The notes under the pieces were generated by a model, which had not been told where the DNA came from, did no database searches, and saw only the letters and a list, made by a program, of their open reading frames with translations. 64,000 bases of DNA from Centroscyllium fabricii (lineage: Eukaryota), in contig JBNRSN020000015.1 of assembly GCA_051313645.2 (NCBI GenBank), positions 52,514,001 through 52,578,000 on the forward strand, read 5' to 3'. Below are positions 595 through 55,968 of the stretch, in pieces. A program made the translations under genes and the position numbers. Numbering within the stretch: position 1 is the stretch's first letter; each line of letters starts with the position of its first letter.

Positions 595-616
595 CGTCAA
601 ATTTAGTGAATAAAAT

Positions 617-907
617 TGTGACCGAAATAACGACCTCATGGACGAGTAGTTAAGAGGATGAAACAATAAGGCTTTTATTCACTAAAGGTGGACATGCACC
701 AGCTAGTCGACCGTCCCCAGGAATGGCAGGGGGAAGGGAGACGGCCGCTTATGTACCTGGTCGCGGAAGGGAGGAGTCGCAGGCGGGGCCAGCATGGGCA
801 TGTCCAGGTAATCGTACACAGTGAACTATATTACAACATGGTGAATAGTACGATTACAGCAATACATAAAATAGTGGGTATATATACATAAAGAGTGGTT
901 TAACACA
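617..907 (-). repeat. 5' LTR of G0 (291 bp)
   Basis: TG...CA ends, GTGAATAAAAGCC poly(A) signal, same layout as the other G-family LTRs. Confidence 0.85.
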
Positions 908-3961: not shown

Positions 3962-4260
3962 TGTGGTAAAACACCATATTGTATATATTGTATAGTGTCT
4001 CCCCCTTGTGTCCCCTCCTTGTAATTACTGTACCTGTATGTGTAGTTGTGACTCCTTGTCTTGTCTGGGAGGACTTGTCTGGGAGGACCCAGCTCCTTAG
4101 CTTCCTCTCCAGGCTCCGCCCACAAGGTATAAAAGTGCCTGCACACTTGGGTGCTTTCACTTTGACTCCGAAGATCGCCAGACCTGTGAGCAACAGTTCT
4201 AAGTCAATAAAAGCCTCGGTTGCATCGAACCTTCGACTGGTTGTGATTGATTGTGCATCA
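3962..4260 (+). repeat. 3' LTR of G1 (299 bp)
   Basis: TGTGGTAAA...GTGCATCA with TATAAAA and AATAAA, preceded by a PPT. Confidence 0.93.
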
Positions 4261-4263
4261 GGG

Positions 4264-4535
4264 TGATGCACAATCAATTACGCCAGTCGATGATTAGATG
4301 TAATCGAGGCTTTTATTCACATAGAACTGGACACAGGTCCGACGAACTTCCAAGCCAAAGTGAGAGCACTCAGGTGTGCTCTCACTTTTATACCCAGTGG
4401 GTGGAGCCTGGGGAGGAAGCCGAGGAGTGGAGTCCTCCCAGGTGAGTCCTCCCTGGCAGGGAGATGTTACGTGCAGTTACAGGGAGGGGGCACAAGGGGG
4501 AGACATATATATACAACATACAGTGGTTTACCACA
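4264..4535 (-). repeat. 3' LTR of G2
   Basis: Matches 13090-13347 apart from ~8 substitutions and a 14-bp indel. Confidence 0.95.
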
Positions 4536-6344: not shown

Positions 6345-6613
6345 TGATACCATCAATTACTCGAGTCAGAGAGCGAGTTAACATAGGCTTTAATAAACTT
6401 AGAACAAGCGTAAGGGATCACAGGTATCGTTAGTACAGTACAGTAGAGAGGAGGTCAGAACCCACGAGTGCTGACCTTTATACCCCCAGGGTCAGAGGCA
6501 TGGCCTACCCGAGGTCCTCCAGGTACAGGTCTCCCAAGTCTGGCTGGGCAAGAGTAGACACGCCCTAAGGCATGTACATACAGATAGTTGGTGTTATAGC
6601 CAATATCACCACA
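6345..6613 (-). repeat. 3' LTR of G3
   Basis: TG...CA, PPT AACAGGAGGTGAA adjacent, ATTAAA poly(A) variant. Confidence 0.95.
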
Positions 6614-6728
6614 TTCACCTCCTGTTAAATAATTTCAGTACCAGGGGGGGCACAAACAATACCTAACATATGTACAGACAGTATTTACAAAGGTTCCGAG
6701 ATGTTCCAAAAAAATTGTGGCCGCCTGT

Positions 6729-9700
6729 TCATGCCAGGTCACATTGAGCAGACCAGGCGGTCTGGCTGGCGTCGCACCCTCGACGACCGTCTGAGCTGCT
6801 GGTCCTGCCGTTCGGTATCGGTACCTGGGGAAGCCGAAGAATATACGTTAGCAGCGCGTCACCAGGGAATACGGCGGTATGGGTCGGTGGGGGGCTGGGC
6901 ACGGGCTGCGATGTGGTAGGTGCCGGCTGGGCCCACGACGAGAGGAAGGGGGGTGGGGGCGGAGTTGTGGTCGCAGGGGCGCCTGCGGGCGCCAGGTCTT
7001 TAATAGAGACTGTGTCCTCCCTGCCATCAGGGAACTCCACATAGGCGTACTGCGGGTTAGCATGGAGGAGGAGTACCCTGTCGACCAGTGGGTCGGTCTT
7101 ATAGTGCCGTACATGGCGCCGCAACAGTACTGGGCCCGGGGAGGCTAGCCACGACGGCAGCGACATCCCCGAGACGGACTTCCTGGGGAAGGAAAACATC
7201 CGTTCGTGCGGCGTTGCGTTGGTCGCTGTACAAAGAAGCGACCGTACGGCGTGTAGAGCGTCCGAGAGAACCGCCTGCCAGCGTGAGGCTGGAAGGCCCC
7301 TGGACCTGAGTGCCAGGCGGACCGCCTTCCAGACAGTGCCATTCTCGCGCTCTACTTGGCCATTGCCCCGGGGGTTGTAGCTCGTTGTCCTGCTCGACGA
7401 GATTCCTCTCGCGAGTAGGAACTGGCGCAGTTCGTCGCTCATAAAAGCAGACCCCCGGTCAGAGTGTATGAATGAGGGGAAGCCGAATATTGCGAATATC
7501 GGGGCGAGGGCGTTGATGACTGTGGCAGCAGTCATATCAGTGCAGGGTATTGCAATTGGGAAACGGGAGTATTCGTCCACGACTGTGAGGAAGTAGACAT
7601 TCCTGTCGGTGGACGGGAGTGGGCCCTTAAAATCAATACTAAGGCGTTCGAAGGGCCGAGAGGACTTAATCAGGTGTGCCTTGTCCGGTCGGAAAAACTG
7701 CGGCTTGCATTCCGCACAGACCGGACAATCCCTGACTATCTCCCTAACCTCCGCAATACTATACGGTAGATTGCGGGCTTTGATAAAATGATAGAAGCGG
7801 GTGACCCCCGGGTGGCAGAGGTTATTATGCAGAGCCTGCAGTCTGCCCGCCTGCACGCTGGCGCAGGTCCCGCGGGACAGTGCATCGGACGGCTCGTTGA
7901 GTCTACCTGGCCTGTACAAAATATCATAATTAAAGGTGGACAATTCGATCCTCCACCTCAAGATCTTATCGTTCTTAATTTTTCCCCGCTGTGTGTTACT
8001 AAACATAAATGCTACCGACCTCTGATCGGTGAGCAGGGTAAATTTTCTACCGGCCAGGTAGTGTCTCCAGTGGCACACCGCTTCGATAATGGCTTGGGCC
8101 TCTATTTCCACGGAGGAATGCCGTGCTTCCGAGCCCGAGAGGGTACGGGAAAAGAAGGCAACGGGTCTGCCTGCTTGGTTCAGGGTCGCCGCCAGGGTGA
8201 AGTCGGACGCGTCGCTCTCCACTTGGAAAGGCACGTCCTCATCAATGGCGGACATTGCAGCTTTTACTATATCGGCTTTAAGTTGCTTAAAAGCTGTTAG
8301 TGCCGCTGCCGACAGGGGAAAAACAGTGGCCCGCATCAGAGGCCGGGCTTTGTCCGCAAATTTCGGGACCCACTGCGCGTAATACGCGAACAGCCCCATG
8401 CACCGCTTTAGAGCTTTGGGTGTCTTGGGAAGGGGATACTCAATCAGCGGGCGCATTCGGTCAGGGTCCGGGCCGATTAACCCGTTTTCCACCACACAGC
8501 CCAAAATAGCCAGGCGTCTGGTGCGGAAAACACATTTTTCTTTGTTGTAGGTCAAATTCAGGGATTTGGCTGTTTTCAAAAATTTAGCGAGATTCTCGTC
8601 GTGGTCCTCGTCCGAGTGGCCGCAGATAGTGACGTTATCTAGGTAGGGAAAGGTGGCCCTGAGCCCGTGTTCGTCTACCATTCTATCCATTTCCCTCTGG
8701 AAGACGGACACTCCGTTCGTCACTCCGAAGGGAACCCGAAGGAACTGGTAGAGGCGACCATCCGCTTCGAAAGCGGTGTAGGGGCGCTCCTCTCTGAGGA
8801 TTGGGACCTGGTGATATGCCGCTTTAAGGTCTATAGTCGAATAGACTTTGTATTGGGCAATTTCATTTACCATGTCCGAGATCCGGGGAAGGGGGTACGC
8901 ATCGAGGAGTGTAAACCGGTTTATGGTCTGACTGTAGTCGACCACCATCCTGTTCTTCTCCCCCGTCTTTACCACTACTACTTGGGCCCTCCAGGGGCTG
9001 CGGCTGGCTTCAATCACCCCCTCTGCCAACAGTCGCTTCACCTCGGTGCCAATAAACGCCCGGTCTGCAGCACTATACCGCCTGCTCTTTGAGGCAATCG
9101 GTGCGCAGTCCGGCGTGAGGTTTGCGAACAGTTTCGGGGGTGAGATCCGTAAAGTGGTGAGCCCACAAAGCGGGCGCTCACGGGGGGTACTCGACTCGAC
9201 CGTCAGGGGTGGGAGAGGGCCGCCGTATGCCAAGGTGACATACTGCAGGTGGCTCTGGAAATCGAGCCCCAATAACACTGGGGCGCACAAGTGGGGTAAC
9301 ACAAACAGTTTAAAATTACAGTATTTTACCCCGCGAACTACAAGTGATACTACGCAACACCCCACGGCCTGCGCCGATTCTGAGTCCGCCGCCAAGGCGA
9401 TGCGTTTTAAACAGGGGCGGATCGATAGGTGAAGACGGTCAGCAGTCTCGGGGGAAATAAAACTATCAGCACTACCCGTATCAAATAAACAGTTACAGTT
9501 TTGTCCGTTTACCTGGATGTCCATCATTGATTTCTGCAGTTCATGGGGTTTTGATTGGTCCAAAGTGATGGACGCCAGCACGGTTGATGAGTCGTCTTCA
9601 TCCGAATATTCGGGGTCGGAGTCAAGTCGAAGACTCTCAAAATGGCCACTGCCTCGTGGTGATGAACTAAGATGGCCGCTCCTCCTAGCTGTGGCCTCAA

Positions 9701-10553
9701 GATGGCCGCCGCCTCGTGGTGCTCCCTCGCGGTCATCTACCTCCGTGTAGTAGGAACGTGGTGCCGCTCTCGCTCCGCTGCAGACGGGGGCTGCCTTCTT
9801 TTTCTGCCCTATTGCGCGGCACATCGCGGCATAGTGCCCCTTCTTTCCACACCCCGAGCACGTAGCATCTTTGGCTGGGCAGCGCAGTCTAGAGTGCCTA
9901 GCTTTTCCGCAAAAGAAACACTTTTGGTTGGTTTCAGGCCTGCTTCTTCCTGCCGCTGCCGTTAGCGCTGGGGTAGGAGTTGGGGCTGGGGATGCCCACG
10001 TAGGCGCGCTTGGTTGGCCATACGTGGTGGATCTCCGATCTGCATTGTCCAGATTTACAATCAGGGAGGCTGCTTCTTTTAACGTTAGCTCATCCCGTTC
10101 TAGCAGTCGGGCCCTGATATATGGGGAGTATACCCCTCTTACCAGAGCGTCCAGTGCCAGTTCGTTGTAGTGTTCGTCCGCCGTCAGGGGGCCAGGGGCG
10201 CAATCTCGGGTCAGCGCACAAATTTCTTTCACGAATTTGGCGCCCGGTTCCTCGGCGCTCTGGGCCCTCTGAGTCAACAAGTGCCTTAAGTGAACAGCGT
10301 TGGCTGCTGGCACAAAGTGTTCTTTCAGCTTCTCCATGGCCTGTTCGTAATCTGACTCCCCTTCGATGAGGTGGTAATGGTCAGCACTGATTCTGCAGTG
10401 TAGAATTCGGCTCTTCTGCTGATCAGTTGAAGCGGTCTTTTTCACTTCGTCGATATAGCTCCTTAGCTGTTGTTCCCAGTGTTTATACCGGCGTTCGATA
10501 TCGGGAGCAGTCGCATCAATTTCCAAGATCGGGACAGCCAGAATTCGGTCCAT
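6729..10553 (-). CDS. gag-pol: Single-frame Gag-Pol polyprotein of G3 (1274 aa): Gag with two zinc knuckles, protease, RT, RNase H, integrase
   Basis: CFFCGKARHSRLRC and CSGCGKKGHYAAMC; LFDTGS; YLDN; ESDASD; HPG..CPVC; HSDRGS; GNGQVER. No env or chromodomain evident. Confidence 0.96.
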   Translation of the reverse strand: MDRILAVPILEIDATAPDIERRYKHWEQQLRSYIDEVKKTASTDQQKSRILHCRISADHYHLIEGESDYEQAMEKLKEHFVPAANAVHLRHLLTQRAQSAEEPGAKFVKEICALTRDCAPGPLTADEHYNELALDALVRGVYSPYIRARLLERDELTLKEAASLIVNLDNADRRSTTYGQPSAPTWASPAPTPTPALTAAAGRSRPETNQKCFFCGKARHSRLRCPAKDATCSGCGKKGHYAAMCRAIGQKKKAAPVCSGARAAPRSYYTEVDDREGAPRGGGHLEATARRSGHLSSSPRGSGHFESLRLDSDPEYSDEDDSSTVLASITLDQSKPHELQKSMMDIQVNGQNCNCLFDTGSADSFISPETADRLHLSIRPCLKRIALAADSESAQAVGCCVVSLVVRGVKYCNFKLFVLPHLCAPVLLGLDFQSHLQYVTLAYGGPLPPLTVESSTPRERPLCGLTTLRISPPKLFANLTPDCAPIASKSRRYSAADRAFIGTEVKRLLAEGVIEASRSPWRAQVVVVKTGEKNRMVVDYSQTINRFTLLDAYPLPRISDMVNEIAQYKVYSTIDLKAAYHQVPILREERPYTAFEADGRLYQFLRVPFGVTNGVSVFQREMDRMVDEHGLRATFPYLDNVTICGHSDEDHDENLAKFLKTAKSLNLTYNKEKCVFRTRRLAILGCVVENGLIGPDPDRMRPLIEYPLPKTPKALKRCMGLFAYYAQWVPKFADKARPLMRATVFPLSAAALTAFKQLKADIVKAAMSAIDEDVPFQVESDASDFTLAATLNQAGRPVAFFSRTLSGSEARHSSVEIEAQAIIEAVCHWRHYLAGRKFTLLTDQRSVAFMFSNTQRGKIKNDKILRWRIELSTFNYDILYRPGRLNEPSDALSRGTCASVQAGRLQALHNNLCHPGVTRFYHFIKARNLPYSIAEVREIVRDCPVCAECKPQFFRPDKAHLIKSSRPFERLSIDFKGPLPSTDRNVYFLTVVDEYSRFPIAIPCTDMTAATVINALAPIFAIFGFPSFIHSDRGSAFMSDELRQFLLARGISSSRTTSYNPRGNGQVERENGTVWKAVRLALRSRGLPASRWQAVLSDALHAVRSLLCTATNATPHERMFSFPRKSVSGMSLPSWLASPGPVLLRRHVRHYKTDPLVDRVLLLHANPQYAYVEFPDGREDTVSIKDLAPAGAPATTTPPPPPFLSSWAQPAPTTSQPVPSPPPTHTAVFPGDALLTYILRLPQVPIPNGRTSSSDGRRGCDASQTAWSAQCDLA

Positions 10554-10588
10554 TTTTGGATTTTAGCGACGATCTAAGTTTATTAAAT

Positions 10589-10857
10589 TGATACCATCAA
10601 TTACTCGAGTCAGAGAGCGAGTTAACATAGGCTTTAATAAACTTAGAACAAGCGTAAGGGATCACAGGTATCGTTAGTACAGTACAGTAGAGAGGAGGTC
10701 AGAACCCACGAGTGCTGACCTTTATACCCCCAGGGTCAGAGGCGTGGCCTACCCGAGGTCCTCCAGGTACAGGTCTCCCAAGTCTGGCTGGGCAAGAGTA
10801 GACACGCCCTAAGGCATGTACATACACATAGTTGGTGTTATAGCCAATATCACCACA
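10589..10857 (-). repeat. 5' LTR of G3
   Basis: Direct repeat of 6345-6613. Confidence 0.95.
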
Positions 10858-13058: not shown

Positions 13059-13089
13059 CCTCTTTGTAAAAAAACTATGTGAATAAAAT

Positions 13090-13347
13090 TGATGCACAAT
13101 CAATTACGCCAGTCGATGATTAGATTTAATCGAGGCTTTTATTCACATAGAACTGGACACAGGTCCGACGATCTTCCAAGCCAAAGTGAGAGCACTCAGG
13201 TGTGCTCTCACTTTTATACCCAGTGGGCGGAGCCTGGGGAGGAAGCCGAGGAGCGGAGTCCTCCCTGGCAGGGAGATGTTACGTGCAGTTACAGGGTGGG
13301 GACAGAAGGGGGAGACATATATATACAACATAAAGTGGTTTACCACA
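13090..13347 (-). repeat. 5' LTR of G2 (258 bp)
   Basis: Direct repeat of 4264-4535, followed by gag ATG ~30 nt downstream. Confidence 0.95.
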
Positions 13348-13352
13348 CAGGG

Positions 13353-20435: not shown

Positions 20436-20606
20436 GACTCCGCTCCTCGGCTTCCTCCCCAGGCTCCGCCCACTGGGTATAAAAGTGATAGCACACCTGA
20501 GTGCTCTCACTTTAGCTGGGAAGATCGTCGGACCTGTGTCCTGTTCAATGTGAATAAAAGCCTCGATTACATCTCACCATCGACTGGCGTGATTGATTGT
20601 GCATCA
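20436..20606 (+). repeat. 5'-truncated LTR of the G2 family inside the protease region of E
   Basis: Closely matches the last ~170 bp of the G2 LTR (GGGTATAAAAGTG...GTGCATCA); host sequence follows directly. Confidence 0.88.
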
Positions 20607-23442
20607 GCGACCAACACTTTGCATGGGACTTTGTCACAGCCAACATTGCACGTCCATTGCCGGGCACAGATTTCCTTTGTGCCCACGGCCTGCTCATGGA
20701 CATGCGGGGCAGACGTCTGATGGACGCATCTACGTTTACATCGTTTCCCTGCCAGCGAGGTGATGGACAACCCCTCGTTAGCTCTTGTTCTCCTCCTCCG
20801 GGTGACAAGTACGCACGTCTGCTGGCCAAGTTTCCGGCCATCATGCAGCCAACTTTCTCCGACGGTTTGACAAAACACAGCATCCAACATCATATCGCCA
20901 CTACTGGCCCGCCGGTTTTCGCCAGAGCTGACCGCCTCGACCCTACGAAGATGGCGGTGGCCAAGCAAGAATTCTCTGCCCTGGAGAAGCTAGGGATCAT
21001 TCGGCCTTCCAACAGTCCGTGGTCGTCCCCACTCCATATCATCCCCAAGCCAGGAGGCGGCTGGCGACCATGTGGTGATTATCGACGCCTTAATGACGCC
21101 ACCACGCCGGACAGATTCCCGGTGCCTCATATTCAGGACTTTTCAGCCCATTTGGTGGGCGCTACCATATTTTCAAAGATTGACCTCGTCCGAGGGTATC
21201 ACCAGGTCCCGGTCCATCTGGATGACATTCAAAAAACAGCCGTTATTACGCCTTTCGAACTTTTTGAATTTTTGTGCATGCCTTTCGGGTTAAAGAATGC
21301 TGCACAAGTTTTTGAACGTTTGATGGACTCTGTCCTTCGGGACTTGGACTTTTTGTTTGTTTCTCTTGATGATATTTTAGTTGCTAGTGTTAACGAATCT
21401 TAACATGTGATGCACCTGCGCTCTCTTTTTCAGAGATTGGCCCATCACAGCCAAATTGTTAACCCAGTCAAATGCCAATTCGGCTGCCGTGAGATTGATT
21501 TTCTTGGGCATCACATTTCCCCCGCAGGAGCTGTCCCTTTGCGCTCCAAGGTACAAGGGATCGCGGATTTTCCCCAGCCTAACTCGGTTAAGTCACTCCA
21601 AGAATTTCTTGGAATGGTTAATTTTTACCATCGTTTCATTCCTCGAGCGGCCTCCATCATGCGCCCCTTGTACGAGGCTACCAGGGGTAAGACCGGCAGA
21701 GATGGCCTTCAGTGGTCGGCTGATATGCTTCAGGCTTTTCACCTCGCTAAGTTGGCTTTGGCTGAGGCCACTCTTTTGACCCACCCCATTCCGGGAGCTC
21801 CACTGTCGTGCACGACGGACGCCTTGGACCATGCCATAGCCGCCATTCAGCAGCAATGGGTGGACGGTGCCTGGCAACCCCTCGCCTTTTTTAGCCACCA
21901 ACTACGGAAAAACGAGCTCTCATATAGCACGTTTGATCATGAACTGCTAGCTCTTTTCCTCGCGGTATGTCATTTTCACTTCCTGCTAGAGGGCCGTCCT
22001 TTTATGGCCTACGTGGACCATAAGCCACTCATCTTTGTCATGTCTAAGGTCTCAGAGCCTTGGGCAGGTCGCCAACAGCATCACCTGACTTTCATTTCCG
22101 AATTTACAACGGATATTCGCCACGTGTCCGGTAAAGACAATGTCGTTGCGGACTGCCTGTCCCGTCCTTCTCTCAACGCTGTCCACGTTGGTGTTGACTA
22201 TGCTGAAATGACACGCGCCCAGCGAGCAGACACTGAGCTGCAGGTTCTTCATGACACGTCCACCAGCCTGACCCTGACAGACGTTCATTTTCACGACGCC
22301 GGCCTGACCCTTTTGTGTGACGTGCCCGTCCCCACCCCCAGGCCGTTGGTTCCTACCTCCTGGCACAGGCGCATTTTTCAGTTGGTCCATGGCTTCTCAC
22401 ATCCTGGAATGCGGGCTTCTCAGAAGCTTATGTCCGCCAAGTTCGTTTGGCCAGGCCTGCATAAAGCCGTGCGTGACTGGACTAACGCCTGCCAGGACTG
22501 TCAGCGCGCCAAGGTCCATCAACATACTAAGGCCCCTTTGGAAAAAATGTCGGTGCCCGAACGGCGCTTTGATCATGTCCATGTTGACCTGGTGGGCCCA
22601 CTGCCCCCATCCTAGGGTTTCACCCATCTCCTCACTGTCATTGACCGCACCAGTAGGTGGGCAGATGCTGTACCTCTTTCTTCCACTACTGCGGCCGACG
22701 TCGCTCGTGCCTTCATTCTTTCCTGGGTGGCCCGTTTCGGGGTACCGTCGGACATCACTTCCGACAGGGGCCCTCAGTTCACCTCTCAACTCTGGAGCGC
22801 AGTTGCCTCTGGTCTAGGTACACAAGTGCACTGCACAACTGCACACCACCCACAGTCGAATGGCATTTGTGAGCGTTTCCACCGCGCCCTTAAGGCCTCA
22901 CTCCGAGCTAGCCTGTTTGATGCCAATTGGCTCGACAGGCTACCTTGGGTTTTGCATGGGTTGCGTTCTGCACCCAAGGACGACCTCGGCACTTCATCTG
23001 CCGAACTTGTTTTTAGACAGCCTTTCCGTGTTCCAGGAGAATTTTTCCCCTCCACTACCGACTCTTGGTCGGACAGCGAGCAATTCGCTCAGCTTACTGA
23101 CGCGGCACACCGTTTTCTCCCTGTGCCCACCTCTTGGCATGGCGTCCGCTCAACTCACATACCTACTGTGATGAACCATTTGGGGTGGTTCACACTGTGC
23201 TATTATTGTATATAGTTTGTGTTAATAAATCTGTACCTTTCTGTAAGGACCTGGACCTGGACCGGCTGACCCCGCCTCTGAGTATGGGTATAAAGGAGAA
23301 TGCTTCGCCCACCTGGCTCTCATTCTGGGCGGACTCATCGCAGACCAGGTTCAGTTCTTTGTGAATAAAAGCATTCAATTACTTTTCACCAATGACTGGC
23401 GTGATTGATTTGCACATCAATTTTATTCACAAAGTTACAAGA

Positions 23443-26400
23443 ATGCAGAATGATGATCAACAACAGAGCCACCAGCCAGCAGCACACCAGCCAACACCTT
23501 CAGAATGCTTGAAAACTATCCTTAAACCGAAAACTCTCGACCTCAACCCCCAGGCTCCGAACGCGTCGAACGATTTTGAGCACTGGCTGAGCTGCTTCGA
23601 ATCGTTCCTGGTAATGGCCGAAGTCAGCGATGCGCACAGGAGACAAGTCCTGGTCTCATGCATGAGTGGCAGGGTGTATTCTATTATTAAGAATGCCACT
23701 GACTACGATGCAGCATTGGAGCTGCTGAGTGCTCGATACCTCCAGCCAGTCAACGCCGTCTACGCTCGCCATCTACTCGCCACGTGGAGTCAACAGCATG
23801 GTGAGTCGAATGAAGCGTTTCTGGAGGCTCTTCAAGCTCTCGCTCTGCGCAGCGGATGTGCCCCTGTTAATGCCCAGGAGCACATGGACCTCCTCGTCCG
23901 CGATGCCTACGTGGCAGGAATCAGATCGGCCCCAGCTCGCACCCGCCTGCTCGAGCAGGATAATTTGTCCCTGAATCAGGCGCTGAAGCTCTCCAACGCG
24001 GTGGATGGGGCCCTCCGAAGCCTGGATTCGTACACGGTGTATGGCTCCCACACGGTTTCCCCTGGGCCTTGGGACTCGTGTTCGGCGCCCTCGACGGCGG
24101 CCACGGCGCCATCTGGACAGCCAGCGCCTCTGAAATGCTATTTTTGTGGCCAGAAACGCCATCCACGAAGCTCCTGCCCAGCAAAGTCGTCATCCTGCTC
24201 CAAATGTGGCAAGAAGGGCCACTTTGCGAAGGTCTGCCGATCGGCCCCGGAATCTGCAAGCAAAACAGCAGCAGCCTGCGATGACCATGCCACAGAGTGG
24301 CCTCAGGTACCTGGCGCCCCCCAACAGCGGCCCCCAGAACAATTCCTACTTACCTTGCCTCGGGTGCGGCCTGCTAGCGTCGTTTCCAGCGCTCCGCCAT
24401 CGTTGGGGGCGTGGGCGTCTTTTCCCTCCATCGGATCCCGTGCTGTATTGCCATCTTTGAGGGTGCGGCCTTCTTCTTCATTGGAATGGCGCGAAACGCG
24501 GGCGCGTTGTGCCTCCGGGCAGCAGAGGCCCTGCCCCATCACGTGACGCTGCCATCTTCGTGCAGGACGGCAGTAGCGGACCCACCCCATCACGTGACGC
24601 CGCCATCTTCGTGCAGGACGGCCTGCATCCCGGCAACAGAGGCCCCGCCCCATCACATGATGATGCCATCTTCCTGCATCACGGCTGCAGCGGCCCTGCC
24701 CCATCACGTGACATCACCATCTTTGTATAGGACAGCCCGCATTCCGACTGCAGCGGGCCCGCCCCGTCACGTGATGCCGCCATCTTGGTGTAGGAACAAT
24801 TTAAAAGAACAGGCTCCTGCAGTAACAGGCAACTTCACAGCAACCACTACGATTCTGGCAGCAGCAACAGTCCACTCCAGACCAATTCAGCATTCGGGCG
24901 CACAACTCACCCGACGGGCCGAAACCCCACCGCGGCATGCCGCGTGCGAATCACGGGCGCCGCCATCACCCGCGGACCCAGCTTTGCACAAGGGCCAAAG
25001 CGCGCACACCACACTTGCCTCTACGGCCCCGAACCCGTCTCTTATTTTATCAATGATGCCCGTCCGGGTGGAGGGGCACCTCACCCGCTGTCTGTTCGAC
25101 ACTGGGAGTACGGAGAGCTTCATACACCCTGATACAGTGAGCCGTTATTCCCTCAGGGTTAGGCCCGCACATCGTAAAATCTCCCTCGCCTCTGAGTCCC
25201 AGACTGTGGACGTCATCGGCTGCTGTACAGTCACCATTACTGTGAAGGGGACGACATACCGCAACTTTCCACTGTACGTCCTCCCACAGCTCTGCGCCCC
25301 TGTGTTGCTTGGCCTAGATTTCCAGTGCCACCTGCAGAGCTTGACGATGGCGTACGGCGGTCCCCTGCCTCCTCTCACGGTCAGCAGCCGTGACTGCCCT
25401 GCCTCACAACCACACTCCTCTTGCGGTCTGTCTACCTTGAAGATGGACCCCCCCTCACTGTTCACCAAACTTGACCCTGACTGCAACCCATTGTAACCAA
25501 GAGTCGGCGATACAGCGTGGGGGACCGCACCTTTATTAAGGCAGAGGTTGCTCGGTTGTTGCGGGAGGGCATCATCGAGGCCAGTAACAGCCCGTGGCGG
25601 GCCCAGATGGTAGTGGTTAAGTCGGGCGACAAACAGCGCATGGTCATTGACTATAGTCAGACCATTAACCGCTACACTGGGCTCGACGCTTACCCGCTTC
25701 CTAGGATCAATAACATGGTCAATCAGATTGCCCAGTATAAGGTCTTCTCCACCATCGACCTTAAGTCGGCCTATCACCAGCTCCCCATCAGAGCTGAGGA
25801 CCGTAAATACACTGCCTTCGAGGCAAATGGGCGCCTTTTTCATTTCCTCCGGGTCCCCTTTGGGGTTACCAACGGAGTTTCGGTCTTCCAAAAGGAGATG
25901 GACTGAATGGTTGACCAGTACCATTTGCAGGCCACATTCCCGTATTTGGACAATGTCATGATCTGCAGCTATGACCAGCAAGATCAGGATGCCAATTTGG
26001 ACAGGTTTCTCCGTACGGCCCAGCGTCTGAACCTCACTTACAATGAGGATAAGTGCGTTTTCAACACTAACCGGTTGGCTATCCTCGGCTACATAATTGA
26101 GAACGGGGTCCTCGGCCCTGATCCCGAACGTATGCGCCCCCTTCAGGAGCTGCCCCTGCCGCACTCCCCCAAATCTTTGAGGAGATGCCTGGGGTTTTTC
26201 TCGTATTATGCACAATGGGTTCCCCATTATGCTGATAAGGCCCGGCCTCTCCTCAGAGCTACCTCCTTCCCGCTCCCGTTAGAGGCCCAAATTGCATTTT
26301 CGCATATCAAGCAAGACATCATCAAGGCAACCATGCACGCCATTGATGAGTCTCTTCCCTTCCAGGTCGAAAGCGACGCCTCAGACTTCGCCCTGGCCGC

Positions 26401-27958
26401 CACCCTTAACCAGGCAGGCAGGCCCGTCGCTTTCTTCACCCGTACCCTACAGGGCCTTGAAGTCCGCCACTCTTCAGTGGAAAAAGAGGCCCAAGCAATC
26501 GTGGAAGCAGTGCGCCACTGGCGCCACTATTTGGCCGGTAAACGTTTTACCCTTCTTACTGAGCAGCGGTCAGTAGCATTTATGTTCCACCATAAACAGA
26601 GGGGTAAGATCAAGAATGACAAGATCCTCAGGTGGCGGATCGAACTCTCCGCTTTTGAGTACGACATTCTGTACCGGCCAGGGAAGCTTAACGATCCCCC
26701 GGACGCCCTGTCCCGAGGATCGTGTGCCAGCGCCCAGTCGGGTAGTCTGAACACCCTCCACGCTAATCTCTGCCACCCGAGGGTCACCAGGCTCGCTCAC
26801 TTCGTCAAATTATGCAATCTCCCTTATTCCATTGCGGAGATCAAGGCGATGACGCAGGAGTGCCCTGTCTGTGCTGAGTGCAAGCCCCAGTTTTACAGGC
26901 CTGACAGGGTGCACCTCATCAAGGCCACCCGCCCATTCGAGCGCCTGAGTGTGGACTTCAAAGGTCCCCTCCCCTCTACCAACCGTAACTCGTACATTCT
27001 CACTGTGGTCGATGAGTTCTCCCGTTTCCCTTTTGCATTCCCATGCCCAGATATGACGAGTGCAACAGTGATAAAGCATCTTATCACGCTATTCGCCATT
27101 TTCGGCCTTCCCGGCTTCATACACAGCGACCGGGGGTCCTCATTTATGAGTGACGAACTGCGTCATTTTCTGCTCGTGAGGGGGGTTGCCTCGAGCAGAA
27201 CGACCAGTTACAACCCCCGGGGGAACGGTCAGGTAGAACGTTATAATGGGACCATCTGGAAGGCCATCACCCTGGCTCTTCGATCCAGAGGCCTTCCAAC
27301 CTCCCACTGGCAGGAGGTACTCCAGGATGCACTCCACGCTACCCGTTCCCTCTTGTGTACAGCCACCGGTTGCACGCCTCACGAGAAACTCTTCTCTTTC
27401 CCCAGGAAATCGACTTCGGGGACGTCTCTGCCGACATGGCTTACCAACCCGGGGCCGGTTCTGCTTATGAGGCACGTCCGTGGACACAAGACAGACCCTC
27501 TTGTTGAACGTGTGCACCTGCTGCATGCCAACCCTCAGTATGCTTACGTGGAGTACCCAGACGGGCGTGAGGACACCGTCTCGATTAGAGACCTTGCGCC
27601 CGCTGGAGACGTTCACTTACAGTTGTTGGCGGAGCCCTTGCCCTCCCAGGTCACATTTTCGCAACAGGGGCCGTCTTCTCGTTCACCTGCGCACACTACA
27701 TCGGGGCCCTCATCACCCACAATGCACGACGGAGCTCATCACGTTGCTCAGCCTACCCTTCCGGCGGCTGCTACACCTCCACCAGATCTTCCTGCGCCTG
27801 AGGTACCTCTTCCACCGGTGGAGTCCCTGTTCACGTCGGAAGCTCCGTCGGCACCTTTTCCGATTGAGACTGCTCCCGCCTATTCGCAAGAGCCGCCACT
27901 GCCTCGCAGGTCTGTTCAGACTGTTCGACCTCCTCAAAGACTGATAACACAGTGCTGA
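23443..27958 (+). pseudogene. gag-pol: gag-pol of G4, about two frameshifts and one premature stop
   Basis: ORFs 23392-24546 (two zinc knuckles), 24411-25496 (LFDTGS), 25517-25906, 25907-27958 (YLDN, ESDASD, HSDRGS). Confidence 0.93.
24525..24790 (+). repeat. Five tandem ~48-60 bp units in the G4 gag-pro linker
   Basis: Unit core GGCCC(T/C)GCCCCATCACGTGACGCCGCCATCTT recurs five times with variants. Confidence 0.9.
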
Positions 27959-29100
27959 TATTCGCCCCGCGTGACTTGTTTTTGAGAACGGGGTGAATAT
28001 GATGAACCATTCGGGGTGGTTCACACTGTGCTATTATTGTATATAGTTTGTGTTAATAAATCTGTACCTTTCTGTAAGGACCTGGACCTGGACCGGCTGA
28101 CCCCGCCTCTGAGTATGGGTATAAACGAGAATGCTCCGCCCACCTGGCTCTCATTCCGGGCGGACTCATCGCAGACCAGGTTCAGTTCTTTGTGAATAAA
28201 AGCCTTCAATTACTTTTCACCAATGACTGGCGTGATTGATTTGCGCATCACCTACCGAGCTCCTTCGGGCTAAAATTGTCTTTGTGCGTCGCGATGCTCC
28301 CAGAACCCCCTTGCAGGCGCCATACACTGGTCCTTACTGGGTGCTGGAGGTTGGCAACAAAGCTTTTCTCTTGGAGGTCAGGGGTCGACAGGACTGCATG
28401 TCTATTGATCGTCTTAAGCAGACCCAGTTCAACCCCACCTTACAGGAACAATCTTCCCCAGCTCTGCGCCAGGAGCCCTTCTTTGTTCCGAGCGTACCCG
28501 CGGCAGGTCCCACAGTCTTTACGCCTTCGGGTACGGCTCCAGTTGCAGTTTCACCCCTTGTTTCACCTCCTTTCATGCCTGTGGCGCAGTTACACCCTAG
28601 TCCAGTACACGGCTCTGCGGTGTCCTCTCCTGCACCGGCGGCCTATCGCACTCACAGCGGCCGCCTCATCAAACCTCCTCGGAGGTTGACGTACCATGTG
28701 TATGAGGATTCTGAGGGGTGTGTGTAGCATAGCCACTCAAGAGAGTCATCCAATCTCTCTAGAACCTGAGAATCCACCTTACCCGAGCGGGCCCTCCCCT
28801 GTTTCCCTATTGGTCAGGTTGTGTCAACGGTTATGGTCCCTCATTGGTCCATAGGGCTGTCACTCAAGAGCCCCCACAGTGCTTTGCGTTTTCGCACCGT
28901 TTTCTCTCAGTTGTGCGTTGTTGTACTTCAATAAAGACTTATTGGATTTTGCTCCGCTGCTTTCCTCCGTTTCTCGATTATTTAAGAGTGGGAAACTTAG
29001 GTTCCCCACAATTGCACCACTCACAGGAGCACATAGTCTCTATGGAGAATAAATGGCTATCTACGGAGCATAGATGGCAGAGGCTCATAGACCTTCTGTG

Positions 29101-40783: not shown

Positions 40784-41932
40784 ATGGGAGGCCTTTTTTT
40801 CCTTCCCTTCCTGGCATTAGAGGATCTCCAGCAGCGGAGGCAGCAGCAGCAGATACAGCAAAAACAGCAGATGCAGCAACAGCAGCAGAACCAGGAGCGA
40901 CAGGCTCCTGCTCACCCTCCGGAGACAGCACAGGCCAGAAGGAGCCAGCGCTTGGAAGCCCGTCAGCGCAGGAGATACCCCCCAAACAGGGTTTACAGAC
41001 ACAGGGCCAGCTATCTCAATATGACTGAACGGCAGTGCCAAAGGTGGCTCTGACTTTCACGACAGGTAGTGACTGATATCTGCGCAATGCTGCAGCAAGC
41101 CCTGGAGCCCAGAGCACCAGTCGGACACTCCTTACCAGTGGCCATCAAAGTCACCACCGCATTCAACTTTTTTGCCTCAGGCTCATTCCAGGGATCATCA
41201 GCCGACATCAGCGACGTTTCCCAGTCAGCCGCGCACACTTGCATCATGCAGGTAACTGATGCCCTCTTTGCCCTCGTGCACAATCACATCCATTTCACCA
41301 GGGATCGCACAAATGTGAGGGCGCGAGCGATTGGCTTAGCTCATATGGTAGGCTTTCCAAGGGTGCAGGGCATCATTGACTGCACACATGTGGCTCTTAA
41401 GGCACTCCATGCCAACCCAGGGGCTTTTGTCAACCGCAAGGGCTTCCACTCCCTCAATGTTCAGCTGGTGTGTGACCACAAGAAGGAGATTTTGCATGTA
41501 TTTGCCAGGTACCCTGGCAGCTGCCATGACTCTTTCATCCTGCGCCAGTCTACTGTGCCTCTGCTCTTCAGCCCACCACATGAACTTGAGGGATGGCTAC
41601 TTGGAGACAAGGGCTATCCACTGAGGACTTGGCTAATGATGCCGTTGAGGAGGCCAGCCAACGAGGCTGAGGAGCACGACAACTCCAGCCACATTTCAGC
41701 AGACAGGGTCTCCAGAATGGTCGTGGTCTGCTGTACACTGCACAACATGGCACAGTGTCATAGCTTGCTGATGCCTGACGACCAAGAAGCTCCTCTCATA
41801 CCCTCCTCAGATGATGATGATAATGAGGAGGAGGATGAGTACAAGGAGGAAGGTGAGGATGAGGACAAGGAGGGCAAGGAGGCCGTGGAGGCCACAAACG
41901 AGCATCCTGCAGAAGCCCGTCAACCAGCGTGA
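40784..41932 (+). pseudogene. Harbinger (HARBI1-like) DDE transposase with one premature stop and a C-terminal deletion
   Basis: [45 protein letters not shown]; stop at 41051-41053; region with the catalytic E appears deleted near 41695. Confidence 0.9.
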
Positions 41933-50372: not shown

Positions 50373-53009
50373 TTATGATTTCCCTCTTTCTTGCAAGAGA
50401 AGGTGGCATATGACAGGAATCAGCAGGAAGGGACTGGAGGAGGACAAGCGCGCCTGCATGTTTCAACCACCATGGAGGAGACCGTGCTGGCTATCATGGG
50501 AAGGGGCTTCGCTGAGGCTGTGGCCACTGGTGGGGCTGGATCGATGGATGATGAGGGTATCTGCCTACCTAACCCTCCTTTTCTCTTTTTACTTCTCTCT
50601 CATCCCTCAATCTCTTCTCAGGGTGTTTACATTATAGCCTCCCTTCCTCTTCCTGTGCCTCCACTTCATGTTGCACTTCTTCCTCCTGCACTTCCTCGAC
50701 TTCTTCCTCCTCCTCCTCCTCATGCTCCTGCACCTCAGCTTCTCACCTGATAGGTGATGGGAAGGGCTGTTTATCATAATGGTAAGGTTTTGCAGCATGC
50801 AGCATACTAGTACAAACCTTGATACCCACTCAGCTGACTACAGGGCTCCTCCGGAGCAGTCCAGGCAGTAGAACCATTGATTGAGGACGCTGATGATGTG
50901 CTCTATAATGTTCATTGTGGCAGCTAGGCTCTCATTGTTAGTCTGCTGTGCACACGTGCGTGAATTCCAGACTGGAGTCATGAGCCATGCCATGAGTGGG
51001 TAACCCTTGTTGCCCAGCAGCCAGCCTTTGACATGCTGTGGTGGTTCAAATGTAGCTGGCACAGGGGACTACTGCAGATTGAAGGAATTGTCACTGCTGT
51101 CAGGATAACTGGCATTTATTTGCATGATGTGCTACCTGTGGTTGCACAACAGCTGCACATTGAGGGAGTGGAATCCTTTTCAGTTCAAGAAAATGGCCAA
51201 GTTCACATGAAGTGTACGCGAGGCAATGTGCATGCAATTAATGGCAGCCTGCACCATGGGAAATTTTGCAACCTGTACAACCGTTCACTCCACCTGTTTG
51301 TCTCTGACAAGTGGGAATGAGATTAAACTGTTTCTCTGTGTACAGATAGCTTTAGTGACATCCCTTATGCAGCAGTGTACTGCAGACTGCAAGATGTTGC
51401 TTACCTTAGATCTGCAACAGCAGCCTGGAAGGAGCCAGGCACATAAAAGTTAAGAGCCACGGTCCCCTTGATAACCACAGATAATGCTGTCCTTGCCCTG
51501 TATTGAGGTTGCAGTTGTGGTTGCAGCAGTGGGCAGATTTCAGTCATGACTTCTTTTGTGATGCAAAGATGTCTCATGCATCCTCACTGAAGTTGAGGAA
51601 AGAGACTTGCTCCCTAAAGATCCTTGGCGGATATGGCCACCTGCTGAGAGCCCTTCTCCCCCCACCCTTCCTCCTCCTTCCCCTTCTTGCAGCTAGTCCT
51701 GCTCTGCGTGGCCTCTCTTCATTCTCCCAGTCATGTTAAATCCCAAAGGAAGCTCTACCAGACCACTCATATCTGGAAGCAACTTCTTTCAGCGCAAGAT
51801 TTTAAATGAACAACAAAGTATTTCAACATTAACCAGACCACTCCCTGTATACTATTCAAACTTTAGTCAAGTATAGGAAAACTCCAAAAACATACAATTG
51901 CACCAGTAGCCAGAAGAAATAACACAGCAACTAACCTGCAAGTAGTTCATGATCTCTTTAAATAGCACTGGTGGAGGGGGCGGAGAGGGAAATCCTTCAT
52001 TCCGTTTAATGTTGTGTTCAGCTGTGTGAGGTTCAGATAGGGCTGCCGTTTACATTTGGAAAATGGCAGTGCTGGTGTCAAATCAAAGTTGCACCATGAT
52101 TTGCGTGAAGATCTGCCTGCTCTGCATGCTGCCACAGGACGTGAGTATATGCCCATGGCAACCCCTTTCCCAAAATAGCATTCTGTGCACTTCCCATCGA
52201 AAGTGTGTGCACGCATCTCGGATCCTATTTTTGAGCGTTATGTGGCTGCATAGCAACTAAAAAACGGACACTACAGAGCCCAATTTAGCCCTCTACAAGT
52301 CTAAAATATACTCAGTAGCCTTATTATATAAAACAAAGCATAGCAGTACTAGACTAGCAAATTCCATCAAATTGTTTAAGATTGTTGCTGGATTCCTGCT
52401 GCTACCTGACTAATCCTTTCCATTCTCGTACATTACATTCTCCTAAAATCATTATCTAGCAACTCAAAACATGGTATACATTACACACAGAATGATGGAC
52501 ATTGAAAGCAACAATTACATGGAGCAACAATTACATGGAGCAGTTCAGGTAAAATATTGAAATTTAAGCAGTTTCTAATTTGCAGCTAATCTCTGAGATG
52601 AGACCAGGGTCTTAAAATCACTGGTGGAGACCTACTGCATACACTGCAATGTTCTTGGAGCAATTTTATTCTGTACACAAAGGTTGTTGTATTCTCTGGG
52701 AGAGGGGGTCTGTCTTGGTGGACTCTTGTGTGCACTATGTTGTTAATGCAGAACAATGGCACCGATATTAACTTGGAAGGTGGGAGGGATCGAGGGGGGC
52801 AGGTGGTGCTGTTTTGTGGTCGGGAAACCTGGAAGAATGGGTTTCCCCCCAGGTCCTGCTGCATTTAATGACAGGGCCTGATTAATATTTTTGTCTTTGA
52901 GATTGAGACTGGCTGGCTGTTGGGTAGAAATGCCCGTGACACCCGGCCACAGCCGGGGAGCAGTGAGGAGGGAAGGAGAAATCGTGGATCAAATGCCGGG
53001 GATCGATCA

Positions 53010-55463
53010 GAGGGTCGGAGACATCGGGGGTCAGAGATATCGGGGGTTAGAGACATCGGGGGTCAGCGACATCAGGGGGTCAGCGACATCAGGGGGTTAG
53101 AGATATCGGGGGTCGGAGTCATCGGGGGTCGGAGACATCGGGGGTCGGAGTCATCGGGGGTCGGAGTCAACGGGGGTCGGAGTCAACGGGGGTCGGAGTC
53201 ATCGGGGGTCGGAGTCATCGGGGGTCGGAGTCATCGGGGGTCGGAGTCATCGGGGGTCGGAGTCACCGGGGGTCGGAGACATCGGGGGTCGGAGTCACCG
53301 GGGGTCGGAGTCACCGGGGGTCGGAGTCACCGGGGGTCGGTGTCATCGGGGGTCGGAGTCATCGGGGGTCGGAGTCATCGGGGGTCGGAGTCATCGGGGG
53401 TCGGAGTCATCGGGGGTCGGAGTCATCGGTGGTGGGAGACTTCGGGGGTCGGAGACATTGGGGGTTGGAGACATTGGGGGTTGGAATCATGGGGGTTGGA
53501 GACATCTGGGGTTGGAGACATCTGGGGTCGGAGACATCTGGGGTCGGAGACATCTGGGGTCGGAGACATCGGGGGTCGGAGACATCGGGGGTCGGAGTCA
53601 TCGGGGGTCGGAGTCATCGGGGGTCGGAGTCATCGGGGGTCGGAGTCATCGGAGGTCGGAGTCATCGGGGGTCGGAGTCATCGGGGGTCGGAGTCATCGG
53701 GGGTCGGAGTCATCGGGGGTCGGAGTCATCGGGGGTCGGAGTCATCGGGGGTCGGACACATCGGGGGCCGGAGACATCGGGGGCCGGAGACATCGGGGGC
53801 CGGAGACATCGGGGGCCGGAGTCATCGGGGGCTCGGAGTCATCGGGGGCTCGGAGTCATCGGGGGCTCGGAGTCATCGGGGGTCGGAGTCATCGGGGGTC
53901 GGACACATCAGGGGTCAGGACATCGGGGGTCAGCAACATCAGATGGTCGGAGACATCGGAGGTCAGCGACTTCGGGGAGTCGGAGACATCGGGTGTCGGA
54001 GTTATCGAAGGTCAGAGACATCGGGGGTCAGAGACCTCGGGGGTCAGCGACATCGGTGGTCGTAGACATCGCGGGTCAGAGACATTGCGGGCCAGAGACA
54101 TCGGGGGGACAGAGACATCGGGGGTCAGAGACATCGGGGGTCAGAGACATTGGAGGTCAGAGACATCGGGGGTCAGCGACATCAGGGGTCAGAGACATCC
54201 GGGGTTGGAGATATCGGGGGTCAGAGACATCGGAGGTCAAATATATCGGGGATCAGTGACATCAGGGGGTCGGAGTCATTGGGGGTCGGAGTCATTGGGG
54301 GTCGGAGTCATTGGGGGTCAGAAACATCGGGGGTTAGAGACATCGGGGGTCATAAACATCAGGGGGTCGGAGTCATCGGGGGATCAGAGACATCAGGGGG
54401 TCGGACATTGGGGGTCAGAGACATCAGGGGGTCAGAAACATCGGGGGTTAGAGACATCGGGGGTCAGAGACATCAGGGGGTCGGAGTCATCGGGGGGGTC
54501 AGAGACATCAGGGGGTCGGAGTCATCGGGGGGTTGTAGACATCGGGGGTTAGAGACATCAGGGGGTCGGAGCCATTGGGGGGGGTCGGAGACATCGGGGA
54601 GTCAGAGTCATCGGGGGGTCGGTGAAATCAGGGGGTCACAGACATCGGGGGGCCGGAGACATTGGGGGGCCGGAGACATCGGGGGGTCAGAGACATTGGG
54701 GGTCAGAGACATCGGGGCTCAGAGACATTGGGGGTTCGGAGACATTGGAGGTCGGAGACATCGGGGTTCAGCGACATCGGGGGGTCGGAGTCATCGGGGG
54801 TCAGAGACATTGGAGGTGTCAGAGAGATCGGGGTCGGAGTCATCGGGGGTCGGTGACATAGGGGGTCGGAGACATCGGGGGGTCAGAGACATCGGGGGTT
54901 GGAGACATTGGGGGTCAGAGACATCAGGGGGTCAGAGTCATTGAGGGGTTGTAGACACCGGGGGTTAGAGACATCAGGGCGTCGGAGTCATCGGGGAGGT
55001 CAGAGACATCGGGGGGTCAGAGTCATCGGGGGGTCGGTGAAATCAGGGGGTCAGAGACATCGGGGGGCCGGAGACATCAGGGGGTCAGAGACATCGGGAG
55101 GTCAGAGACAGCAGGGGGTCAGAGACATCGGGGGGTTGGAGACATCGGGGGGCTCAGAGACATCGGGGGGTCAGAGACATCGCGGCTCAGCGACATCGGG
55201 GGGTCGGAGTCATCGGGGGTCAGAGACATCGGAGGTGTCAGAGACATCGGGGTCGGAGTCATCAGGGGTCGGAGACATCGGGGTTTGGAGTCATCGGGGG
55301 TCAGAGACATCGGGGGTCAGAGTCATCGGGGGTCAGAGTCATCGGGGGTCAGAGTCATCGGGGTCAGAGTCATCGGGGGGTCGGAGACATCGGGGGTCAG
55401 AGACATCGGGGGTCAGAGACATCGGGGGTCAGAGACATCGGGGGTCAGAAACATCGGGGTCAG
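53010..55463. repeat. G-rich minisatellite, ~16-bp unit GGGGGTC(G/A)GAG(T/A)CATC, roughly 150 copies
   Basis: Directly visible tandem array; the long ORFs over it are translations of the repeat. Confidence 0.97.
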
Positions 55464-55465
55464 AG

Positions 55466-55968
55466 TTTCTTTTTATCCATTGATGGGATGTGGGCATCAC
55501 TGGCTGGCTAGGCCTGCATTTAGTGCCCATCCCTAATTGCCCTTGATAAGATGGTGGTGAGCCACCTTCTTGATCCGCTGCAGTCCATATGGTGTAGGTA
55601 CACCCACAATGTTGTTAGGAAGGGAGTTCCAGGATTTTGGCCCAGCGACAGTGAAGGAGCGGCGATACAGGTCCAAGTCAGGATGGTGTGTGGCTTGGAG
55701 GGGAACTTGTAGGTGGTGCTGTTCCCATGCGTCTGCTGCCCTTGTCCTTCTAAGTGGTAGAGGTCGCGGGTTTGAAAGGTGCTGTTGATGGAGCTTTGGC
55801 GAGTTGCAGCAGTGCATCTTGTAGATGGTACACACTGCAGCCACAGTGCGCTGGTGGTGGAGGGAATGAATGTTGAAGGTGGTGAATTAGGTGCCAATCA
55901 AGCGGCCTGCTTTATCCTGAATGGTGTCGAGCTTCTTAAGTGTTGTTAGAGCTGCACTCATCCAGGCA
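55466..55968 (-). mobile_element. 3' fragment of a CR1/L2-group LINE inserted near the end of the minisatellite
   Basis: AAVCTIYKMHC..RRSFTVAGPKSWNSLP C-terminal motif and A-rich tail; repeat units resume at 55969. Confidence 0.75.

What the first reader, a model, noticed from the sequence alone, without database searches (positions are those of the whole stretch)
10573..10647. The same duplex would mask the poly(A) signal only at the 5' LTR
Seen: the paired LTR segment always contains the whole hexamer (AATAAA in G0, G2, G4; ATTAAA in G3, where the partner strand has changed to TTTAAT accordingly), and the partner lies outside the LTR, so it exists only downstream of the 5' copy. Known: LTR elements must suppress the 5' poly(A) site; HIV-1 does so partly with a hairpin. 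Inference: one helix may both prevent premature polyadenylation and supply the primer, or poly(A) occlusion alone may explain the conservation.
Basis: inference. Interest (0 to 1): 0.7.

Follow-up and report, generated by a model that had tools for sequence, protein, structure and literature searches.

The report
Self-priming helix that covers poly(A) signal
In this animal retrotransposon lineage, the spot where a tRNA primer normally binds is instead a perfect complement of the element's own terminal repeat, likely to prime its own DNA copying; the helix is predicted to hide the poly(A) signal at the 5' end as well, but 8 of 25 families keep the helix without that signal, so masking is probably a side benefit.

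Summary
In all four Ty3/gypsy elements of the window that have a 5' LTR, the 14-15 bases starting 2 nt after the LTR are the exact reverse complement of an LTR segment containing AATAAA or ATTAAA. The hexamer is predicted paired (0.92-1.00) in the 5' context and mostly open (0.29-0.42) at the 3' LTR (G2, G3, G4).

"Always" fails beyond the window. Of 25 families, 16 have the canonical hexamer in the helix, 8 lack it (at least 3 separate branches), and 3 of those carry it in the loop, predicted mostly open.

What is conserved looks like priming: fixed start at +2, sharp 13-14 bp length, 339 of 350 cells Watson-Crick, 76 two-sided changes, no G-U pairs, and no tRNA-type site. Best reading: Tf1-like self-priming, with the poly(A) signal held near the cut by the needs of strand transfer. 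Masking is plausible but untested; masking alone is unlikely.

The scan noted this self-priming signature before on other DNA (e1-7851694, e1-7814031). No RNA ends were measured.

The parts
10633..10647 (-). G3 LTR arm of the helix (candidate self-primer); its last six bases are the hexamer ATTAAA (10633-10638)
10573..10587 (-). G3 leader arm, at the primer-binding-site position, starting 2 nt after the LTR's terminal CA; exact reverse complement of the LTR arm
10589..10857 (-). G3 5' LTR, 269 bp, TG...CA
   Evidence: two differences from the 3' LTR
10721..10726 (-). TATA box of the G3 5' LTR (TATAAA), 93 nt upstream of the helix end; start site predicted about 30 nt further on, not measured
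6729..10553 (-). G3 single open frame gag-protease-RT-RNase H-integrase (1274 aa from the first ATG), two zinc knuckles in Gag, no chromodomain hit, no env
   Evidence: best solved relative Ty3 Gag-Pol, E 1.7e-58
6614..6629 (-). G3 polypurine tract
6345..6613 (-). G3 3' LTR; its hexamer (6389-6394) has no partner strand behind it and is predicted mostly open
602..686 (-). G0 helix: LTR arm 673-686 (AATAAA at 674-679), leader arm 602-615; 5' LTR 617-907
13075..13150 (-). G2 helix: LTR arm 13137-13150 (AATAAA at 13138-13143), leader arm 13075-13088; 5' LTR 13090-13347, 3' LTR 4264-4535; G2 is the host into which G3 inserted
23357..23434 (+). G4 helix: LTR arm 23357-23370 (AATAAA at 23364-23369), leader arm 23421-23434; 5' LTR 23167-23419, 3' LTR 27998-28250

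Best explanation
The leader arm is a perfect 13-15 base complement of an LTR segment at the primer-site position, and the helix is likely a self-priming duplex, with masking of the 5' poly(A) signal a predicted by-product rather than the reason it is kept. Steps. (1) Shown: the arm starts at +2 after the LTR, the helix stops sharply at AAA followed by a purine, and no family has a tRNA-type site. (2) Inferred from Tf1: inside the particle the RNA is cut at the end of the helix, probably by the element's RNase H, leaving a 3' end on the last A, one base from the LTR end. (3) Inferred: the primer is copied back into the primer site during plus-strand synthesis, which keeps the two arms exactly complementary without G-U intermediates. 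(4) Inferred: strong-stop DNA then covers only the 23-65 nt between the cut and the LTR end, so the poly(A) site must fall inside that stretch for strand transfer to work. This confines the hexamer to the helix end or the first part of the loop, the only two places where it is found. (5) Predicted, untested: where the hexamer is in the helix it is hidden in the 5' RNA only, which may add to suppression by promoter proximity.
For: Register: an unbiased search for the longest perfect inverted repeat upstream of gag put the 3' arm directly after CAA in 34 of 45 regions, 5 more show the same helix broken by one substitution, 6 show none (counted by hand). LTR ends are fixed by 3' LTRs and 5-bp duplications in 12 elements. 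Pairing: 25 families, 339 of 350 cells paired, 76 cells changed on both sides, none on one side, 0 of 500 shuffles reach the score; slid controls pair 29-48%. Pairs per position are 23-25 of 25 to position 13, 20 at 14, then 12, 10, 9, 5; G-U appears only from position 15. The neighbouring hairpin uses G-U in 9 of 67 pairs (hand count). L038, 98.4-98.8% identical to its siblings, carries one substitution in both LTR copies and the complementary one in the leader arm. No TGG in the first 6 nt after the LTR in 0 of 25 families. Hexamer absent from the helix in 8 of 25, needing 4 changes on the RT tree, at least 3 forced by well-supported branches; in L002, L003 and L019 it lies in the loop with opening costs of 0.1-1.5 kcal/mol. 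Known: Tf1 primes with the first 11 bases of its RNA after RNase H cleavage (PMC7175516), and about half of Tf1 cDNA carries a copied primer site (PMC11042837); Ty3 plus-strand synthesis stops after 12 nt of primer (PMC5371799).
Against: No RNA end, cleavage or priming was measured. In the four window elements a TATA-like box lies 81-93 nt upstream of the helix end, so the arm is probably not the 5' end of the RNA, unlike Tf1. In Ty1 and Ty3 the primer sequence is reported not to be inherited (PMC5371799), so step 3 is not general. The hexamer is in the helix in 16 of 25 families against about 5 expected from composition, which fits selection for masking as well as geometry. Families are related, and L001, L002, L003 and L019 fall on one branch. 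The invariance of CAA and TTT among the 25 is partly circular, since selected junctions by that pattern. L004's helix runs to 19 bp with a mismatch at 14 in 5 of 7 copies, which copying alone does not explain.
Confidence: 0.6

Rival explanations
1. Dual function under selection: the helix primes, and in the families with the hexamer inside it (including all four here) it is also a main suppressor of 5' polyadenylation, working like a built-in cis-antisense strand.
For: 5' versus 3' contrast in predicted pairing and opening cost in G2, G3, G4, L008, L009, L029; 16 of 25 families versus about 0.19 expected each; the partner is complete only about 60-70 nt after the hexamer; no consensus splice donor in the next 300 nt. 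RNA structure can mask AAUAAA from CPSF in HIV-1 (PMC2645353). Recalled, not checked: an inverted copy of a poly(A) signal placed shortly downstream blocks its use in cells (Martinson laboratory).
Against: 8 of 25 families do without it, 3 with an exposed loop hexamer. G2's 5' LTR and L084 have a second canonical hexamer in the loop. In L038 and L040 the hexamer is also predicted paired at the 3' LTR (0.82-0.90). A hexamer about 55 nt from the predicted cap may already be silenced by promoter proximity (PMC2645353), and MoMLV simply tolerates some premature polyadenylation (PMC3694450).
Confidence: 0.25
2. Poly(A) occlusion alone maintains the helix; priming happens some other way.
For: Hexamer inside the helix in 4 of 4 window elements and 16 of 25 families; TAAA end nearly invariant.
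Against: Helix intact in the families without the hexamer; fixed +2 start and fixed length; zero G-U although wobble pairs would mask as well; G at -10 (22 of 25) and T at -9 (21 of 25) are better kept than the hexamer's A at -6 (17 of 25); no alternative primer site.
Confidence: 0.03
3. The primer comes from another copy of the segment: a short transcript ended at an LTR poly(A) site (5' LTR or solo LTR), or the 3' R end of the genomic RNA, trimmed back to the helix end. Some premature polyadenylation would then be useful, the opposite of masking.
For: The segment is in both LTRs and overlaps the 3'-end signal; predicted start sites lie upstream of it, so the Tf1 geometry does not fit directly; sequence covariation cannot tell which copy pairs.
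Against: Needs an unknown trimming step; the cis partner is only 24-66 nt away and should win; the short conserved loop and the hairpin directly behind the helix end (14 of 25 families versus 4.1 in shuffles) suggest a local fold.
Confidence: 0.08
4. The helix serves packaging, dimerisation or translation control (the gag ATG follows within roughly 17-50 nt) and has nothing to do with priming or polyadenylation.
For: ATG abuts the helix in several families; HIV-1's 5' AAUAAA is itself a packaging signal (PMC5961354).
Against: Does not explain the exact primer-site register, the absence of G-U pairs or the lack of any tRNA site.
Confidence: 0.04

Closest known systems
Tf1/Tf2 of Schizosaccharomyces pombe and the Tf1/sushi group (self-primed Ty3/gypsy chromoviruses)
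   Same: Primer site next to the 5' LTR is complementary to the element's own LTR; no tRNA site.
   Different: [quoted passage not shown] No chromodomain hit; single frame of about 1200-1270 aa with two zinc knuckles.
HIV-1 polyA hairpin and LDI/BMH leader switch
   Same: Base pairing over AAUAAA is reported to block CPSF and help silence the 5' site (PMC2645353).
   Different: The HIV-1 hairpin is local, inside R and present at both ends; 5'/3' asymmetry comes from U3 enhancers, promoter proximity and U1 at the splice donor. Here the partner strand itself is 5'-specific and sits at the primer site.
Predicted self-primers of plant Tcn1 (Ty3/gypsy) and TAR (Ty1/copia) elements
   Same: Defined in PMC6317226 as an LTR region complementary to at least 10 nt starting 0-5 nt behind the 5' LTR; this lineage meets that test.
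   Different: Animal hosts, different lineage; no link to the poly(A) signal was seen in the passages read.
Mag/Cigr-1 group of animal Ty3/gypsy elements
   Same: Short LTRs, single gag-pol frame, twin-knuckle Gag (recalled description of Cigr-1 and Mag); Cigr-1 is listed under Mag in a supplement of PMC6238403.
   Different: No reference sequence was available, so the clade is not established; no self-priming was seen for it in the passages read.

Membership tests
Ty3/gypsy LTR retrotransposon | Domain order protease-RT-RNase H-integrase | tested here: met
   Ty3 Gag-Pol best
Ty3/gypsy LTR retrotransposon | TG...CA LTRs, target-site duplication, polypurine tract | tested here: met
tRNA-primed LTR element | Primer site starting with TGG close behind the 5' LTR | tested here: not met
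   0 of 25 families; the TGGTATCA in G3 lies inside the LTR
Tf1-type self-priming (works like) | At least 10 nt starting 0-5 nt behind the LTR complementary to the LTR | tested here: met
   22 of 25 families have a perfect run of 11 or more; 3 are interrupted by one mismatch
Tf1-type self-priming (works like) | The LTR arm is the 5' end of the transcript | tested here: inconclusive
   TATA-like boxes put the predicted start upstream in G0, G2, G3, G4; no start-site data; an initiator-like pattern at -13 to -8 is seen in many families
Tf1-type self-priming (works like) | RNase H cleavage at the helix end and priming from it | not testable with these tools
   needs biochemistry
Tf1/sushi group (membership) | Chromodomain on the integrase | tested here: not met
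   no chromodomain family hit in the G3 frame
Tf1/sushi group (membership) | RT groups with Tf1/sushi on a tree | not tested
   no reference sequences in session; the tree holds only this lineage
Structure-based 5' poly(A) occlusion (HIV-1 type) | Hexamer base-paired in the 5' RNA | tested here: met
   prediction only: 0.92-1.00 in G2, G3, G4
Structure-based 5' poly(A) occlusion (HIV-1 type) | Coverage of the hexamer is conserved with the helix | tested here: not met
   16 of 25 families; lost on at least 3 branches
Structure-based 5' poly(A) occlusion (HIV-1 type) | Breaking the helix raises premature polyadenylation | not testable with these tools
   needs 3'-end sequencing of reporters
Cigr-1 / Mag clade | RT/RNase H groups with Cigr-1 or Mag references | not tested
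   the searched supplements of PMC6238403 list names and accessions, and two RT motifs were not found in them; one file was unreadable and one was cut

The most novel reading that the evidence does not exclude
A widespread animal gypsy lineage uses one 14-bp helix as a three-in-one device: it hides the 5' poly(A) signal during transcription, is later cut at the end of that signal to give the primer, and is re-templated every cycle, so the poly(A) hexamer itself is the 3' end of the primer. This would be a 5'-specific occlusion mechanism with a partner outside the LTR, distinct from the three retroviral mechanisms listed in PMC3694450, and a self-primer taken from inside the RNA rather than from its capped end.
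Probability: 0.25. Interest if true: 0.75.

Novelty: new variant of a known kind. Interest (0 to 1): 0.52.

Why it matters
In the papers read, self-priming is shown only for fission-yeast Tf1 and predicted for its relatives and two plant groups. A non-chromovirus lineage whose protein relatives occur in corals, a sea cucumber, nematodes, a damselfly, sharks and rays appears to have the trait with a different geometry, and tools that look only for tRNA sites would miss it. If masking is real it adds a simple answer to how identical LTRs act differently at the two ends. The lineage supplies its own controls (hexamer in helix versus in loop), which makes the question directly testable. If masking is not real, the finding reduces to a geometric side effect of self-priming that this scan had already noted.

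Tried and rejected
No genome is held for the window, so copy-level statistics in the host were not possible. Viral contigs gave no relatives. No RNA holder was listed among 24 runs; four runs laid as contigs gave no usable start or end. No poly(A) tail behind an LTR was found in the 87 loci; the two A-runs found lie outside the elements. ARAGORN found no tRNA in the window; Rfam gave only a chance match (E 3.2). Rejected: reading G3's TGGTATCA as a tRNA-Met site (it is inside both LTRs); one shared host RNA as primer (the arm tracks each family's own LTR; cross-family matches reach at most 12, mostly 3-6). Rows dropped: of 87 loci, 49 reach the start of gag; 8 had too little upstream DNA; 7 of the remaining 41 failed the junction pattern (L036 and L080 show the helix with junction substitutions; L012 starts too close; L049 has a different 12-bp inverted repeat; L030, L051, L055 show none); 34 loci plus 4 window elements were grouped into 25 families at 85% similarity. 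L072 has a mismatch within the hexamer position and is counted in neither group. G0, L086 and L087 were left out of the tree for lack of RT sequence. Literature: searches showed no paper describing self-priming, or its overlap with the poly(A) signal, in this animal lineage; subscription journals and Repbase reports are not covered. The cis-antisense precedent could not be retrieved. The spacing between polymerase and RNase H sites as the cause of the 13-14 bp length was not confirmed in the passages read.

Full report
Setting. The window is a repeat-rich stretch of animal DNA. The closest named protein relatives of G3 come from a shark and two rays, so a cartilaginous fish is likely (inference). 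It holds nested Ty3/gypsy elements: G0 (minus, 5' LTR 617-907), G1 (plus, 3' part only), G2 (minus, 13347-4264), G3 (minus, 10857-6345, inserted in G2) and G4 (plus, 23167-28250). G3 has one open frame with protease, RT, RNase H and integrase, LTRs that differ at 2 of 269 positions, and a 5-bp target duplication.

Observation. It is correct to the base. G3's 10573-10587 pairs with 10633-10647, whose last six bases are ATTAAA. G0, G2 and G4 have 14-bp equivalents holding AATAAA. The partner starts two bases after the terminal CA, and the 3' LTR is followed by target DNA instead. None of 1000 shuffles reached these runs. Folding puts the hexamer of G2, G3 and G4 at 0.92, 0.99 and 1.00 paired in the 5' context and 0.33, 0.29 and 0.42 in the 3' context. 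These are equilibrium predictions on about 135-nt fragments, not measurements.

Relatives. An alignment-based scan gave 80 metagenome loci (the best 80 of 575 confirmed) and 7 genome-bin loci. Of these, 49 reach the start of gag and 41 have enough upstream DNA. With the four window elements, an unbiased search for the longest perfect inverted repeat found the arm directly after CAA in 34 of 45 regions, the same helix broken by one substitution in 5, and nothing comparable in 6. The 38 regions that passed a junction pattern form 25 families. Over 14 pairs, 339 of 350 cells pair, 76 through changes on both sides and none through a one-sided change; slid controls pair 29-48%. Pairing holds to position 13-14 and then collapses, and G-U appears only from position 15. 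Cells are not independent events, because the families are related.

A canonical hexamer lies in the helix in 16 of 25 families and is absent in 8 (GTTAAA five times, TTTAAA, GATAAA, GGTAAA); one family is unassigned. On an RT tree of 23 rows the label needs 4 changes, at least 3 forced by well-supported branches. Three hexamer-free families (one branch) carry AATAAA or ATTAAA in the loop, 23-30 nt from the LTR end, with opening costs of 0.1-1.5 kcal/mol. The hexamer's register also slides against the helix end (ending at -1 or -2), while G at -10 stays fixed in 22 of 25. So the helix does not need the hexamer. Against my reading, 16 of 25 is far above the 0.19 per family expected from composition, so the overlap is not chance. 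It reflects ancestry, geometry or selection for masking, and sequence cannot separate these. Whether GTTAAA works as a signal in those hosts is unknown.

How it most likely works. The arm occupies the primer-site position and no family has TGG there. Tf1 primes with the first 11 bases of its own RNA after RNase H cleavage (PMC7175516, passages), and about half its cDNA ends in a copied primer site (PMC11042837, passages). Copying the primer back into the site would explain the absence of wobble pairs and the case of L038, where a copy about 98.5% identical to its siblings has one change in both LTRs and its complement in the leader. Ty3 copies 12 nt of its primer, but the same review describes a route in which the primer is not inherited (PMC5371799, passages), so this step is an inference for this lineage. 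A cut at the helix end leaves 23-65 nt of LTR as strong-stop template. The RNA's 3' end must reach into that stretch for strand transfer, which places the hexamer at the cut or just behind it. This geometric argument explains both observed positions without selection for masking. A difference from Tf1: TATA-like boxes with initiator-like sequence about 30 nt later lie 81-93 nt upstream of the helix end in G0, G2, G3 and G4, so the primer may be internal. An initiator-like pattern (motif recalled) inside the arm at -13 to -8 leaves a second start open.

Is masking useful anyway? Possibly. Retroviruses silence the 5' site by putting the signal in U3, by U1 bound to a splice donor, or by tolerating a weak site (PMC3694450, Background section); HIV-1 adds a hairpin over AAUAAA and promoter proximity (PMC2645353, passages). 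Here no consensus donor follows within 300 nt and the partner is complete about 60-70 nt after the hexamer, which favours a real effect. The hexamer is also only about 55 nt from the predicted cap, which may suffice without it. I put required masking at 0.25, by-product at 0.6, masking alone at 0.03.

Known and new. It works like Tf1 self-priming but is not a member of the Tf1/sushi group by the chromodomain test. The clade is unassigned; Cigr-1 or Mag is a recalled lead. Six literature searches showed no description of self-priming in this lineage or of its overlap with the poly(A) signal; coverage is limited to open-licence papers. Papers seen as passages: PMC7175516, PMC11042837, PMC5371799, PMC2645353, PMC6317226, PMC3601003, PMC5341516, PMC5961354, PMC6238403 (plus supplement rows; one file unreadable, one cut), PMC8556966, PMC3670739, PMC12471100, and reference lines only of PMC9721619; PMC3694450 as its Background section and passages. 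Earlier notes of this scan report the self-priming signature in animal gypsy elements on other DNA; none was found on masking. My reading was formed before I opened them.

Verdict. The helix is real and deeply conserved, most likely as a self-priming device. The masking idea is a reasonable and testable add-on, not the explanation of the conservation. Interest 0.52; new variant of a known kind.

Noticed in passing
window 13193-13224 (G2, minus), 10695-10721 (G3, minus), 4132-4157 (G1, plus), about 709-747 (G0, minus): An inverted repeat begins right after the TATA box and spans to the predicted start site (13 perfect pairs in G2). It would fold only in the 3' copy of the RNA, or act as DNA. 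Not clear in G4.
   Followed up: partly
L001, L002, L003, L004, L008, L032, L033, L048, L054, L081, L084, directly after the helix: A short hairpin (purine-CC ... GG-pyrimidine) starts at the base after the presumed cut in 14 of 25 families versus 4.1 in shuffles; weak or absent in the window's elements. It may mark the cleavage site.
   Followed up: partly
helix positions -13 to -8 in alignment A2: G at -10 (22 of 25) and T at -9 (21 of 25) are kept at a fixed distance from the helix end across distant hosts; resembles an initiator, or a ruler for cleavage.
   Followed up: partly
window 4259-4263 and 13348-13352: G2 inserted at the very end of G1's 3' LTR (the target duplication overlaps G1's terminal bases); G3 sits in G2 and G0 in G1. 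This family may favour its own kind as target.
   Followed up: no
L045:150-260: The LTR end and the leader arm appear twice in tandem before gag.
   Followed up: no
L049, upstream of gag: A relative with a different 12-bp inverted repeat that does not follow the usual junction.
   Followed up: no
window 23224-23229 and the matching place in the G4 3' LTR: A second AATAAA in U3 of G4, 190 nt from the LTR end; if used it would end the RNA before R.
   Followed up: no
L081-L087: Animal-type retrotransposons with LTRs inside bacterial genome bins, most likely host DNA in the bins.
   Followed up: no
window 20436-20606: A partial lone LTR of the G2 type with the hexamer but no leader arm behind it.
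   Followed up: no
window 52900-55550 and 41054-41932: A 16-17 bp tandem array with long open frames, and a DDE transposase fragment (PF13359).
   Followed up: no
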